Source: Escherichia coli
Lineage (GTDB): Bacteria > Pseudomonadota > Gammaproteobacteria > Enterobacterales > Enterobacteriaceae
Assembly (NCBI RefSeq): GCF_044647545.1
Contig: NZ_CP172818.1
Length of the DNA stretch: 64,000 nt
Strand: one strand, 5' to 3'
Shown: in pieces, positions 5,273-49,708 of the stretch
How positions within the stretch are numbered: position 1 is the stretch's first letter
Layout of the letters: every line of letters starts with the position of its first letter
Made by a program: the position numbers and the translations under genes
Notes under the pieces: generated by a model
What the model saw: only the letters and a program-made list of their open reading frames with translations
Told to the model about the DNA's origin: nothing
The model's database searches: none

Positions 5273-5310
5273 AATCAATAATGTCAGATATGAAAAGCGG
5301 AAACATATCG

Positions 5311-6576
5311 ATGAAAGCGATCTTAATCCCATTCTTATCTCTTCTGATTCCGTTCACCCCGCAATCTGCATTCGCTCAGAGTGAGCCGGAGCTGAAGCTG
5401 GAAAGTGTGGTGATTGTCAGTCGTCATGGTGTGCGTGCTCCAACCAAGGCCACGCAACTGATGCAGGATGTCACCCCAGACGCATGGCCAACCTGGCCGG
5501 TAAAACTGGGTTGGCTGACACCGCGCGGTGGTGAGCTGATCGCCTATCTCGGACATTACCAACGCCAGCGTCTGGTAGCCGACGGATTGCTGACGAAAAA
5601 GGGCTGCCCGCAGCCTGGTCAGGTCGCGATTATTGCTGATGTCGACGAGCGTACCCGTAAAACAGGCGAAGCCTTCGCCGCCGGGCTGGCACCTGACTGT
5701 GCAATAACCGTACATACCCAGGCAGATACGTCCAGTCCCGATCCGTTATTTAATCCTCTAAAAAATGGCGTTTGCCAACTGGATAACGCGAATGTGACTG
5801 ACGCGATCCTCAGCAGGGCAGGAGGGTCAATTGCTGACTTTACCGGGCATCGGCAAACGGCGTTTCGCGAACTGGAACAGGTGCTTAATTTCCCACAATC
5901 AAACTTGTGCCTTAACCGTGAGAAACAGGACAAAAGTTGTTCATTAACGCAGGCATTACCATCGGAACTCAAGGTGAGCGCCGACAATGTCTCATTAACC
6001 GGTGCGGTAAGCCTAGCGTCAATGCTGACGGAGATATTTCTCCTGCAACAGGCACAAGGAATGCCGGAGCCGGGGTGGGGAAGGATCACTGATTCACACC
6101 AGTGGAACACCTTGCTAAGTTTGCATAACGCGCAATTTTATTTACTACAACGCACGCCAGAGGTTGCCCGCAGTCGCGCCACCCCGTTATTGGATTTGAT
6201 CATGGCAGCGTTGACGCCCCATCCACCGCAAAAACAGGCGTATGGTGTGACATTACCCACTTCAGTGCTGTTTATCGCCGGACACGATACTAATCTGGCA
6301 AATCTCGGCGGCGCACTGGAGCTCAACTGGACGCTTCCTGGTCAGCCGGATAACACGCCGCCAGGAGGTGAACTGGTGTTTGAACGCTGGCGTCGGCTTA
6401 GCGATAACAGCCAGTGGATTCAGGTTTCGCTGGTCTTTCAGACTTTACAGCAGATGCGTGATAAAACGCCGCTATCATTAAATACGCCGCCCGGAGAGGT
6501 GAAACTGACCCTGGCAGGATGTGAAGAGCGAAACGCGCAGGGCAGTGTTCGTTGGCCGGTTTTACGCAAATCGTGA
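5311..6576 (+). CDS. appA: Periplasmic acid phosphatase / phytase AppA with aberrant C-terminus (about 421 aa; canonical about 432 aa)
   Basis: MKAILIPFLSLLIPFTPQSAFA signal peptide and RHGVRAP histidine acid phosphatase motif; C-terminus ends ...NAQGSVRWPVLRKS instead of the canonical ...NAQGMCSLAGFTQIVNEARIPACSL. Confidence 0.85.
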   Translation: MKAILIPFLSLLIPFTPQSAFAQSEPELKLESVVIVSRHGVRAPTKATQLMQDVTPDAWPTWPVKLGWLTPRGGELIAYLGHYQRQRLVADGLLTKKGCPQPGQVAIIADVDERTRKTGEAFAAGLAPDCAITVHTQADTSSPDPLFNPLKNGVCQLDNANVTDAILSRAGGSIADFTGHRQTAFRELEQVLNFPQSNLCLNREKQDKSCSLTQALPSELKVSADNVSLTGAVSLASMLTEIFLLQQAQGMPEPGWGRITDSHQWNTLLSLHNAQFYLLQRTPEVARSRATPLLDLIMAALTPHPPQKQAYGVTLPTSVLFIAGHDTNLANLGGALELNWTLPGQPDNTPPGGELVFERWRRLSDNSQWIQVSLVFQTLQQMRDKTPLSLNTPPGEVKLTLAGCEERNAQGSVRWPVLRKS

Positions 6577-6581
6577 ATGAA

Positions 6582-6840
6582 CGGGGGGACGACGGGCGAC
6601 GGGGGCCGCGGGGAAGACGACGGGACGCGGGGCTATCCGCCAGCGCGGCTGTTCGCGTTGCGGGTCGCGGCGCGGGCCCCGTGGTGCGCCTGCCGCTGGG
6701 CGCCTGGCCTGCTCGGCCTGCGGGGGTTGGTGCGGCGGGGCCGCTTGTCCCGCCGGGCGCCGCGCGCGTCCGCGGGCGGCCGTCGGCGCTCGGCGCGGGC
6801 GGGCCGCGCCTCGGGGGCCGCCCCCCCCGGGCGCCTCTCC
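6582..6840. other. Anomalous extremely GC-rich segment (about 260 bp, mostly G/C) between appA and cspH
   Basis: Composition completely unlike the flanks; G-tracts and a C8 run; only composition-driven Arg/Gly/Pro/Ala ORFs on both strands. Confidence 0.8.
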
Positions 6841-6841
6841 A

Positions 6842-7054
6842 TCAAGACAAATAAACATTTGCCGCTGTTGGTCCTCGCAGGCCATTTACGCGGCAAAATT
6901 CCACGCGTAATCCTGGTATAAGCACTTCTGCGTCGCGGGGAGTGAATGCGGAAATATGGACCTGGACTTCTTTACGACCGTCGGAGGGGATAATGAATCC
7001 TTTGCCGCTTTTGCGATCAAAGGTTTTGACAATTCCTGTCATTTTACGGGACAA
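6842..7054 (-). CDS. cspH: Cold shock-like protein CspH
   Basis: 70-aa [16 protein letters not shown]...; cold-shock domain. Confidence 0.9.
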
Positions 7055-9241: not shown

Positions 9242-9323
9242 GATTTTGCCAGTCCGTTAAGTTGCATACCAAATGCCACTATTCTAGTTGTTCTTAACTG
9301 GCTGATATTGATTCAAATCGCGT

Positions 9324-48198: not shown

Positions 48199-49617
48199 AT
48201 GGAAAAAGACTATTTGGGAATTAGTAGTACTGTATTAGTGAGTTTATTGTTTGGGCTTGCGTTGGTTTTGGTGAATAGTTGGTTCAATCAGCCAACCGTT
48301 GAGGAAGTTGTTCCACGATCAACCTATCTGATGGTTATGATTGCTTTATTTTTTATCGATACTGTTGCATTTATTTTTATGCAGTTGTATTTCATTTATG
48401 ACCGTAGGCAATTTTCAAACTGTATACTTAGTTTGGCTTTTCTAAGTTGTTTGATTTACTTTATTAAAACCGTCATTATCATTCAGCAAATTATTGAGGG
48501 GCGTTTGACAAGCAGTGTTGTTCAAAATGACATTGCAATTTATTATTTGTTTCGTCAGATGAGTTTGTGCGTATTAATATTTCTGGCATTGGTAAATAAA
48601 GTTAGTGAAAACACAAAACAGCGCAATTTGTTTTCCAAAAAAGTGACTTTGTGCATAACTTTGTTTTTTGTTCTTGGGGGGCCGATAGTTGCTCACATAT
48701 TTTCTAGCCATTATGAGAGCTACGATTTACACATTGCCGAGTTAACCAATGAAAATGGTCAGGTGGTTTGGAAAGCCTCATATGTTACCATAATGATTTT
48801 CATGTGGTTAACCTTGCTTTCGGTTAATCTATACTTTAATGGTTTACGCTGTGATATCTGGAACGGGGTGTCGGTGATTGCTTTTTGTGCCGTGCTGTAC
48901 AATATCTCTCTGTTATTTATGAGCAGGTATAGCGTGTCCATTTGGTATATTAGTCGCACTATTGAAGTAGTCAGTAAGTTAACCGTTTTGGTAATTTTTA
49001 TGTGCCATATATTCAGTGCGCTACGAGTAACAAAGGACATTGCACATCGCGATCCCTTAACCAATATATTTAACAGAAATTATTTTTTTAATGAACTGAC
49101 GGTTCAATCAGCATCGGCCAAAAAAACACCTTATTGCGTCATGATTATGGATATTGACCACTTCAAAAAAGTCAACGACACCTGGGGACATCCGGTTGGC
49201 GATCAAGTGATAAAGACAGTGGTGAATATCATTGGGAAAAGCATACGACCAGATGACCTTTTAGCGCGCGTTGGCGGCGAAGAGTTTGGCGTCTTGCTGA
49301 CGGAGATCGATACTGAATGTGCGAAAGCTTTAGCGGAAAGGATTCGGGAAAATGTTGAACGTTTAACTGGCGATAATCCTGAATACGCCATACCACAAAA
49401 AGTGACGATTAGTATTGGCGCTGTTGTAACGCAGAAAAATGAGTTAAACCCTAAGGAGATCTATCAACTGGCTGATAACGCACTTTACGAGGCGAAAGAG
49501 ACCGGGCGTAATAAGCCGCTGTCGCCAGTTGTCGACCTCCGCTTGGGGCTTCTCATCCCCCCGGTGTGTGCAATATACGAAAAAAAAGCCCGTACTTTCG
49601 TACGAGCTCTTCTTTAA
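48199..49617 (+). CDS. dgcT: Diguanylate cyclase DgcT (YcdT) with divergent, extended C-terminus
   Basis: MEKDYLGISSTVLVSLLFGL... membrane N-terminus, GGDEF domain with RVGGEEFGVLL; ORF runs about 20 codons past the expected end into the serX terminator. Confidence 0.85.
   Translation: MEKDYLGISSTVLVSLLFGLALVLVNSWFNQPTVEEVVPRSTYLMVMIALFFIDTVAFIFMQLYFIYDRRQFSNCILSLAFLSCLIYFIKTVIIIQQIIEGRLTSSVVQNDIAIYYLFRQMSLCVLIFLALVNKVSENTKQRNLFSKKVTLCITLFFVLGGPIVAHIFSSHYESYDLHIAELTNENGQVVWKASYVTIMIFMWLTLLSVNLYFNGLRCDIWNGVSVIAFCAVLYNISLLFMSRYSVSIWYISRTIEVVSKLTVLVIFMCHIFSALRVTKDIAHRDPLTNIFNRNYFFNELTVQSASAKKTPYCVMIMDIDHFKKVNDTWGHPVGDQVIKTVVNIIGKSIRPDDLLARVGGEEFGVLLTEIDTECAKALAERIRENVERLTGDNPEYAIPQKVTISIGAVVTQKNELNPKEIYQLADNALYEAKETGRNKPLSPVVDLRLGLLIPPVCAIYEKKARTFVRALL
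49579..49607 (-). terminator. Rho-independent terminator of serX (minus strand)
   Basis: cgtac-tttc-gtacg hairpin adjacent to an A-run on plus (U-run on minus), immediately 3' of the tRNA. Confidence 0.65.
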
Positions 49618-49620
49618 ATA

Positions 49621-49708
49621 TGGCGGTGAGGGGGGGATTCGAACCCCCGATACGTTGCCGTATACACACTTTCCAGGCGTGCTCCTTCAGCCACTCGGAC
49701 ACCTCACC
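49621..49708 (-). tRNA. serX: tRNA-Ser (GGA anticodon)
   Basis: Reverse complement reads GGTGAGGTGTCCGAGTGGCTGAAGGAGCACGCCTGGAAAGTGTGTATACGGCAACGTATCGGGGGTTCGAATCCCCCCCTCACCGCCA with long variable arm and 3' CCA. Confidence 0.93.

What the first reader, a model, noticed from the sequence alone, without database searches (positions are those of the whole stretch)
6540..6582. appA carries a 3' frameshift and truncation that removes the conserved C-terminal cysteines
AppA is canonical through ...GCEERNAQG, then reads SVRWPVLRKS-stop rather than the MCSLAGFTQIVNEARIPACSL ending I recall for E. coli phytase. This is consistent with a 1-bp deletion near 6544/6545; the next 37 nt match the reference in the shifted frame and then diverge into the GC-rich segment at 6582. 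The change removes two cysteines that form disulfides in AppA, so the product may be unstable or inactive.
Basis: partly seen in the sequence, partly recalled or inferred. Interest (0 to 1): 0.4.

Follow-up and report, generated by a model that had tools for sequence, protein, structure and literature searches.

The report
Private compound lesion truncating E. coli appA
The phytase gene appA in this E. coli sequence is broken at its 3' end by a one-base deletion and, 37 bases later, by an unmatched 253-base GC-rich block; both are unique to this sequence, so this is either an assembly error or an ordinary strain-private gene loss.

Summary
A T is missing between 6544 and 6545. AppA then reads GSVRWPVLRKS-stop (TGA 6574-6576) and loses Cys413 and Cys430 (mature C391, C408), leaving C404 and C155 unpaired.

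The frameshift is only half of the lesion. At 6582-6834, a 253-bp block of 86% G+C replaces a 19-bp hairpin that encodes the last codons of appA. If the T is restored in silico, AppA still lacks C430 and gains 78 residues.

The normal tail in this lineage is ...ARIPACALHQDK, overlapping cspH, because the etk-gfc operon is absent. It is not K-12's ...ACSL.

Neither lesion occurs in 5,426 complete E. coli genomes or in sister assemblies with identical flanks. The block matched nothing in any DNA, RNA or protein search.

Across 64 kb the window has no private SNPs but five private indel or replacement events, four of the five beside hairpins. That pattern suggests sequence-reconstruction error (about 0.5) over real breakage and end-joining repair (about 0.35). 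Reads or PCR are needed to decide.

Interest is low.

The parts
5311..6576 (+). appA coding sequence as written: 421 aa from the MKAIL start used in sister genomes (an upstream ATG at 5281 would give 431 aa). It is truncated.
   Evidence: The first 411 residues are identical to AppA of FDAARGOS_497. The RHGVRAP and GHDTN active-site motifs are present. Alignment to 1DKL and 7Z1J covers mature residues 1-390.
6544..6545 (+). Site of the 1-bp deletion. The T of the Met412 codon is missing between these two bases.
   Evidence: the only difference from four sister assemblies in the 6.5 kb upstream of the block; absent from 5,344 complete genomes.
6544..6576 (+). Frameshifted tail SVRWPVLRKS plus the TGA stop.
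6545..6581 (+). 37 nt of native appA sequence, now read out of frame. Natively it encodes CSLAGFTQIVNE.
   Evidence: identical to the reference up to base 6581.
6582..6834 (.). Unmatched 253-bp block, 85.8% G+C, replacing the native 19-bp hairpin GCACGC-ATACCG-GCGTGCG (codons for ARIPAC). Net gain is 234 bp, or 78 codons.
   Evidence: Boundaries. Composition. No relative found in E. coli genomes, plasmids, phages, Rfam, IMG/VR (19, 62-64, 66), GTDB genomes, JGI metagenomes (27, 36) or proteins. Folding is no better than shuffles. Weak 3-base periodicity.
6835..6854 (+). Remnant of the native appA end (CTC TCC ATC AAG ACA AAT AA, encoding ...LHQDK*), now detached from the gene.
   Evidence: The native frame stays open through the block and rejoins here (ORF 6552-6854).
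6842..7054 (-). cspH, intact. Its stop codon lies 7 nt from the right edge of the block, so its 3' flank is changed.
   Evidence: the protein is identical to K-12 CspH.

Best explanation
As written, appA is a pseudogene made by one compound, sequence-private lesion at the appA/cspH junction. A small hairpin that encodes the last codons (19 bp) has been replaced by 253 bp of unmatched GC-rich DNA, and one base is missing 37 bp upstream.

The most likely cause is a failure of sequence reconstruction at a site that is hard to read, not a mutation in the cell. This could be local misassembly, gap filling or polishing that patched in reads from a GC-rich contaminant or co-assembled organism, or some other non-biological corruption. 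The 1-bp deletion would belong to the same bad patch.

Shown: the lesions exist, they are private, they are linked, and they would each remove essential cysteines. Inferred: that they arose in the computer and not in the cell.

If the sequence is taken at face value, the product lacks the C404-C413 and C155-C430 disulfides and the C-terminal 25 residues, and should be misfolded and degraded in the periplasm.
For: 1. The window has no private SNPs in 64 kb. All three differences from FDAARGOS_497 are that strain's own. It does have five private indel or replacement events: 6545 (1 bp deleted), 6582-6834 (19 bp replaced by 253), 24183 (2 bp deleted), 36519 (46 bp deleted) and 49516-49518 (53 bp replaced by 3).
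2. Three sister genomes pooled show 8 SNPs against 3 non-SNP events, two of them IS1-associated. Hypergeometric P is about 0.013.
3. Scaled up, five events in 64 kb means about 400 per genome. That is a normal error rate for a draft consensus, but implausible for a viable isolate that has no new SNPs.
4. Four of the five events lie in or beside hairpins or terminator stems. The dgcT event, like the others, is at a gene's 3' end but is not clearly at a hairpin. Such stems are typical trouble spots for sequencing and assembly.
5. The two appA lesions are 37 bp apart. The chance that any two of eight differences lie that close is about 0.03.
6. The truncated AppA, the altered DgcT and two ORFs in the block are not on record among 153 billion gene positions. 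Sister contigs carry the intact 436-aa AppA and 455-aa DgcT.
7. The block has no relative anywhere. It has more than 80% G+C at all three codon positions, and all ten A's fall in the first 61 nt (P about 7e-7).
Against: - Apart from the five events, the window is a perfect match to its sisters and has no homopolymer errors. By contrast, GCA_029964605.1 and GCA_028888425.1 show 8-9 single-base indels per 20 kb. An assembly this clean is not expected to invent a 253-bp insert with two exact junctions.
- The block shows significant three-base periodicity with constant phase (permutation P 0.007). It therefore looks like real codon-structured DNA, not noise, though a contaminant read would show the same.
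- Hairpins are also hot spots for real breakage and deletion.
- No reads are available, so the artefact is inferred, not shown.
Confidence: 0.5

Rival explanations
1. The lesion is a real, very recent, strain-private mutation. The small hairpin at the appA/cspH junction broke, for example through hairpin cleavage or a replication stall. The ends were resected and rejoined without homology, capturing a 253-bp fragment of foreign GC-rich DNA as filler and losing one base nearby during repair synthesis. The other four private events would be products of the same end-joining process. appA would be a true null allele.
For: - The junctions are exact and the flanks are perfect.
- The five events together look like an end-joining signature: small deletions, a 3-nt filler (CCG) and one large filler.
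- The events lie at hairpins, which are known fragile sites.
- The block has coding-like periodicity, so it probably comes from real DNA.
- The rest of the assembly is of high quality.
- From established knowledge, not tested here: E. coli has a rare RecBCD- and LigA-dependent alternative end-joining route that can insert unrelated DNA.
Against: - E. coli has no Ku/LigD end-joining system, and alternative end-joining is rare.
- Five such events in 64 kb with no new SNP implies hundreds per genome, which is hard to reconcile with viability.
- No donor for the block was found in any collection.
- No other assembly carries any of the five alleles.
Confidence: 0.35
2. A mixed case. The GC-rich block is really present in the strain, but the 1-bp deletion beside it is a consensus error, caused by poor read coverage next to 86% G+C DNA. 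AppA would then be a 514-aa protein with a 78-residue Gly/Arg/Ala/Pro-rich replacement tail that lacks C430.
For: - The native appA frame stays open through the block and rejoins ...LHQDK*. The net insertion is 234 bp, or 78 codons.
- The deletion is only 37 bp from the block.
- Extreme G+C is known to depress short-read coverage (established knowledge).
Against: - An in-frame net length has a one-in-three chance, and GC-rich DNA rarely contains stop codons, so the open frame carries little weight.
- The deletion is not in a homopolymer (GGGCA|GTG), and no other consensus-type error is visible in the adjacent kilobases.
- This probability is already included in the split between the two main readings.
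Confidence: 0.1
3. One reading: an independent natural 1-bp frameshift allele of appA circulating in related strains, with the GC-rich segment being normal downstream sequence.
For: The frameshift itself is present.
Against: - No complete genome has the deletion.
- No genome has the block.
- Sister assemblies with identical flanks have intact 436-aa AppA.
- The block replaces coding sequence.
Confidence: 0.03
4. The block is a functional element: a mobile element, a small intergenic repeat, a structured RNA, a terminator or a new gene. The frameshift would be programmed.
For: Long ORFs cross the block in several frames, and there is weak periodicity.
Against: - There are no terminal inverted repeats and no target duplication. 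The event is a replacement that deletes 19 bp.
- There is no second copy in the window or in 5,426 genomes.
- There is no Rfam match.
- Folding energy equals that of shuffles, z = 0.32.
- There is no protein relative among 5.8 billion clusters or 1.84 billion representatives.
- ORFs are expected in any 86% G+C DNA.
- There is no slippery heptamer at GGGCAGTG, and relatives read straight through.
Confidence: 0.02

Closest known systems
E. coli AppA (periplasmic pH 2.5 acid phosphatase / 6-phytase, histidine phosphatase clade 2; PDB 1DKL, 7Z1J)
   Same: Residues 1-411 are identical to AppA of sister strains and differ at 9 of 411 positions from K-12 (about 98% identical). The signal peptide and the RHGVRAP and GHDTN catalytic motifs are present, as are six of the eight cysteines.
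   Different: The last 25 residues of the lineage protein are replaced by 10 out-of-frame residues. C413 and C430 are lost, so two of the four native disulfides cannot form, including the non-consecutive DsbC-dependent bond.
Lineage-typical appA-cspH junction (ST648-like strains such as FDAARGOS_497, ECONIH1, DFL.5, strain ST648)
   Same: The gene order hya-appCBX-appA-cspH-cspG is the same, there is no etk-etp-gfc operon, and the flanks are 100% identical.
   Different: In those strains appA is 436 aa, ends ...ACALHQDK and overlaps cspH by 13 bp. Here 19 bp of that end is replaced by 253 bp and one base is deleted upstream.
Deletion with filler-DNA insertion, as left by end-joining repair of double-strand breaks
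   Same: Loss of a short stretch, gain of unrelated sequence, no target duplication, no homology at the junctions, and companion small deletions elsewhere, including a 53-bp loss with a 3-nt filler.
   Different: The mechanism was not shown here. E. coli lacks the classical Ku/LigD pathway. No filler donor could be identified. The density of events with no SNPs is not what a natural lineage shows.
Local misassembly or 'break fix' replacements made by assemblers, gap closers and polishers
   Same: Changes of the form 'remove x bp, add y bp' at sites with secondary structure. They are private to one assembly, with no accompanying SNPs.
   Different: This cannot be verified without reads or the assembly history. 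A 253-bp patch with coding-like periodicity needs a real foreign template in the read set.

Membership tests
AppA / histidine acid phosphatase clade 2 (Pfam His_Phos_2) | N-terminal RHGXRXP catalytic motif and downstream HD motif | tested here: met
   SRHGVRAPT and AGHDTN are present in the translation. The alignment to 1DKL and 7Z1J has E about 1e-261.
AppA / histidine acid phosphatase clade 2 (Pfam His_Phos_2) | Full set of eight cysteines forming four disulfides (C99-C130, C155-C430, C200-C210, C404-C413) | tested here: not met
   Only C99, C130, C155, C200, C210 and C404 remain. The pairing is taken from PMC8010977.
AppA / histidine acid phosphatase clade 2 (Pfam His_Phos_2) | Complete C-terminal segment (mature residues 391-410) | tested here: not met
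   The alignment to solved structures ends at mature residue 390 of 410.
AppA / histidine acid phosphatase clade 2 (Pfam His_Phos_2) | Phytase and acid phosphatase activity | not testable with these tools
   This needs an enzyme assay of the strain.
Insertion sequence / MITE (tested for the 253-bp block) | Terminal inverted repeats, target-site duplication and multiple copies | tested here: not met
   There are no terminal inverted repeats. The event deletes 19 bp and duplicates nothing. The block is single-copy in the window and absent from 5,426 E. coli genomes.
Enterobacterial intergenic repeats (REP/BIME, ERIC and similar) | Recurrence at many loci in E. coli genomes | tested here: not met
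   A word-11 blastn of the block against 28 Gb of E. coli genomes gave no match.
Structured RNA or intrinsic terminator | Match to a curated RNA family, or folding better than composition predicts; a stem followed by a T-run | tested here: not met
   Rfam gave no hits at E up to 10. The folding z-score is 0.32. The native junction has no terminator-like site.
Programmed ribosomal frameshift | Slippery site conserved among relatives that share the shifted arrangement | tested here: not met
   All relatives have the unshifted frame. The sequence at the site, GGGCAGTG, has no slippery heptamer.
Horizontally acquired gene fragment from a known organism | Detectable DNA or protein similarity to a donor | tested here: not met
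   Nothing was found in plasmids, phages, IMG/VR, GTDB genomes or JGI metagenomes (exact words only for the last three), nor in six-frame protein searches. Eukaryotic non-coding DNA could not be searched.

The most novel reading that the evidence does not exclude
The block is real and was captured in vivo at a broken hairpin. It would be a fragment of DNA from outside the known bacterial, phage and plasmid sequence space, for example host (eukaryotic CpG-island-like) or GC-rich viral DNA. Together with the four other filler or deletion scars, it would mark an E. coli isolate that went through a burst of double-strand breaks repaired by non-homologous joining.
Probability: 0.08. Interest if true: 0.6.

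Novelty: new member of a known kind. Interest (0 to 1): 0.17.

Why it matters
If real, this strain has lost its periplasmic phytase and acid phosphatase. That is a minor, strain-level trait: agp is intact in the window, and appA is dispensable.

The main value is practical. The window carries five private indel or replacement events and no private SNPs, so any finding in it that rests on a small indel or on the GC-rich block should be checked against reads before it is interpreted.

The unmatched block would become interesting only if reads confirm it. It would then be a clean case of foreign-DNA capture by illegitimate joining in a natural E. coli.

Tried and rejected
1. **Source of the block by DNA similarity.** No hit in E. 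coli complete genomes, distant mode. Plasmids gave only 50-140-bp matches at 69-80% identity to assorted GC-rich replicons, E 0.005-1. Phages gave the same kind of noise.
2. **Exact-word scans.**
   - A 29-mer and three 18-mers against IMG/VR. The three seed hits do not extend.
   - Two different words of 21-22 nt against the GTDB species genomes.
   - Two different 22-mers against the JGI metagenomes. All were negative.
   - These scans find only near-identical donors.
3. **Six-frame protein searches.** No hit among 5.8 billion clusters. One spurious low-complexity hit among 1.84 billion representatives; it straddles the artificial join between two frames.
4. **RNA.** Rfam found nothing. Folding is not better than shuffles.
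5. **Transition hypermutation.** The idea was that A>G / T>C hypermutation of local DNA had produced the block. Purine/pyrimidine pattern matching against the window, sister loci and the K-12 etk-gfc interval stayed at background, best 161 of 253. Only about 150 kb was tested, not a whole genome.
6. **Mobile element or repeat.** There are no terminal repeats, only weak internal repeats.
7. **Tracing the source assembly.** Exact lookups of the private proteins were not on record: AppA 421 and 431 aa, two block ORFs and DgcT 472 aa.
8. **Literature.** A search for a 16-mer of the block found nothing. The primary Berkmen 2005 paper is not held, so its result is cited second-hand from PMC8010977 and PMC9181005.
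9. **Comparator.** Two accession lookups without the NZ_ prefix failed. DFL.5 proved imperfect as a single comparator because it has its own IS1 and SNPs.

Full report
**What is in the sequence**

The window is an E. coli chromosome segment running hyaC to mdoH, with appCBX-appA at 2.6-6.6 kb. The appA ORF ends ...LAGCEERNAQGSVRWPVLRKS*, with TGA at 6574-6576. It is followed by a stretch of extreme G+C, the only such island in the 64 kb. The intact convergent gene cspH follows at 6842-7054 on the minus strand.

**Check of the observation**

The window is 99.98% identical to strain FDAARGOS_497. Alignment shows one missing T between 6544 and 6545 (GGC ATG TGT becomes GGC AGT GT). The next 37 nt are identical (6545-6581), and divergence begins at exactly 6582.

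In precursor numbering, K-12 and FDAARGOS_497 AppA have cysteines at 99, 130, 155, 200, 210, 404, 413 and 430. The window's protein lacks 413 and 430. Its alignment to solved AppA structures stops at mature residue 390 of 410.

1. The lineage's normal tail differs from K-12's. K-12 carries the 9-kb etk-etp-gfcEDCBA operon plus an IS1 between appA and cspH. In FDAARGOS_497, ECONIH1, DFL.5, strain ST648 and every other top-ranked genome, that interval is absent. There appA is 436 aa, ends ...NEARIPACALHQDK* and overlaps cspH by 13 bp.
2. The GC-rich segment is a second lesion inside appA. Bases 6582-6834 (253 bp, 85.8% G+C) replace the 19 bp GCACGCATACCGGCGTGCG. That 19 bp is a small hairpin and encodes ARIPAC.
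3. The net gain is 234 bp, or 78 codons. The native frame stays open through the block and rejoins ...LHQDK* at 6835-6854.
4. Restoring the T in silico gives a 514-aa protein that still lacks C430. Each lesion is therefore enough by itself to damage the C-terminus.

**Likely functional consequence**

The native disulfides are C99-C130, C155-C430, C200-C210 and C404-C413. The C-terminal bond is the non-consecutive, DsbC-dependent one (PMC8010977; PMC9181005). PMC8010977 reports that removing C155-C430 or C404-C413 in the engineered ApV1 variant prevented usable production in Pichia. It also cites Berkmen et al. 2005 for the finding that every native bond contributes to activity.

The product as written leaves C155 and C404 unpaired and lacks the terminal segment. 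An unstable, inactive protein is a reasonable inference, but it is not shown here.

**Both lesions are private**

- None of the 5,344 complete genomes that hold the 77-bp stretch around the deletion matches at 99% or better. The best is 98.7%, which is the one-base gap.
- No genome covers the block.
- Exact-sequence lookups of the truncated AppA (two possible starts) and of two ORFs in the block found nothing among 153 billion gene positions.
- Contigs that share the window's TorR and CsgA alleles carry 436-aa AppA and 455-aa DgcT.
- DFL.5 is identical to the window over 2907-23832 apart from the two appA lesions.

**The block has no detectable relative**

| Search | Result |
|---|---|
| E. 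coli genomes | none |
| Plasmids, phages | short chance matches only |
| Rfam | none |
| IMG/VR | one 29-mer and three 18-mers; seed-only hits that do not extend |
| GTDB species genomes | two words, none |
| JGI metagenomes | two words, none |
| Six-frame protein search, 5.8 billion clusters | none |
| Six-frame protein search, 1.84 billion representatives | one spurious hit |

Other properties of the block:

- It folds no better than shuffled sequence, z = 0.32.
- It has no terminal repeats and no target duplication.
- It is not a purine/pyrimidine-preserving derivative of nearby DNA or of the K-12 etk-gfc interval.
- G+C is 94, 81 and 82% at the three codon phases. This is not ordinary bacterial coding sequence.
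- The phase difference is nevertheless significant and constant along the block (permutation P 0.007). The sequence therefore probably derives from real codon-structured DNA.
- All ten A's lie in the first 61 nt, P about 7e-7.

**Context that bears on authenticity**

Against FDAARGOS_497 the whole window shows three SNPs (13285, 47934, 56690) and five indel or replacement events:

| Position | Change | Location |
|---|---|---|
| 6545 | 1 bp deleted | appA 3' end |
| 6582-6834 | 19 bp replaced by 253 bp | appA/cspH junction |
| 24183 | 2 bp deleted | beside the terminator between ymdF and rutG |
| 36519 | 46 bp deleted | between the putP stop and its terminator stem |
| 49516-49518 | 53 bp replaced by CCG | last 17 codons of dgcT |

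At all three SNP sites the window carries the common allele, shared with ECONIH1 and others. None of the five events is seen in any sister genome that spans its site, nor among the top-ranked complete genomes.

The window therefore has no private SNPs and five private non-SNP events. Three sister genomes pooled show 8 private SNPs against 3 non-SNP events, two of them IS1-associated. Hypergeometric P is about 0.013.

All five events sit at gene 3' ends, and four of the five lie in or beside hairpins. Scaled up, the density is about 400 events per genome.

**Weighing the explanations**

- **For reconstruction error (misassembly, gap fill, polishing or other corruption):** the indel-only spectrum, the density of events, the placement at hairpins, the linkage of two lesions within 37 bp, and the absence of every private allele from public data.
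- **Against it:** the otherwise flawless consensus, which contrasts with the homopolymer-riddled assemblies seen. The exact junctions also argue against it. The block's biological-looking periodicity fits less well, although a contaminant read would show the same.
- **The real-mutation reading** (hairpin breakage, resection, end-joining with filler DNA) explains the forms of the scars well. It conflicts with the event density, with E. coli's lack of classical end joining, and with the missing donor.

I put about 0.5 on artefact and about 0.35 on a fully real lesion. Most of the rest goes to a mixed case, with a real block and a spurious frameshift. Without reads this cannot be settled.

**Comparison with known things, and verdict**

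The gene is AppA by every sequence criterion except its C-terminus (membership table). The lesion is not a mobile element, a known repeat, a structured RNA, a terminator or a programmed frameshift. It belongs to the ordinary class of strain-private or assembly-private gene-disrupting indels, and this allele is not on record.

Interest in the appA truncation is low. The unmatched block is a curiosity that would deserve attention only if reads confirm it. The practical lesson is to distrust small indels in this window until they have been verified.

Noticed in passing
window 6582-6834: The 253-bp block of 86% G+C has no relative in any collection searched. All ten A's lie in its first 61 nt, its G+C rises along the + strand, and it shows weak but significant 3-base periodicity. 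It is the only GC island in the 64 kb.
   Followed up: yes
window 49516-49518 (dgcT 3' end): The 53 bp that hold the last 17 codons and the stop of dgcT are replaced by CCG. The ORF now runs on to 49617 with a new 34-residue tail and ends 3 nt before the convergent tRNA-Ser (49621-49708). The change is private to this window, and the 472-aa product is not on record.
   Followed up: partly
window 36519 (between putP and efeU): A private 46-bp deletion lies between the putP stop codon and its terminator hairpin. It clips the outer bases of the left arm of the stem.
   Followed up: partly
window 24183 (between convergent ymdF and rutG): A private 2-bp deletion (AT) lies immediately 5' of the shared terminator stem ACCGCCGG/CCGGCGGT.
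   Followed up: partly
window about 6500-7054, compared with L004 (K-12): This lineage lacks the whole etk-etp-gfcEDCBA group 4 capsule operon. appA and cspH are convergent and overlap by 13 bp in sister strains, which gives AppA a lineage-specific ...ACALHQDK tail.
   Followed up: partly
window about 9313-12056 (torS, minus strand): torS is annotated as a frameshifted pseudogene in FDAARGOS_497 and ECONIH1. The window is identical to them there, so this older lesion appears to be lineage-wide.
   Followed up: no
L006, L008, L010 (GCA_029964605.1, GCA_028888425.1): These sister assemblies show 8-9 single-base indels per 20 kb relative to the window and split several genes. This is what ordinary long-read consensus error looks like, and it differs from the window's few, larger events.
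   Followed up: no
window 6577-6921 (+) and 6562-6885 (-): Long ORFs of 114 and 107 aa cross the block and run antisense into cspH or appA. They are Gly/Arg/Ala/Pro-rich, have no homologues, and are expected by chance in stop-poor GC-rich DNA.
   Followed up: yes
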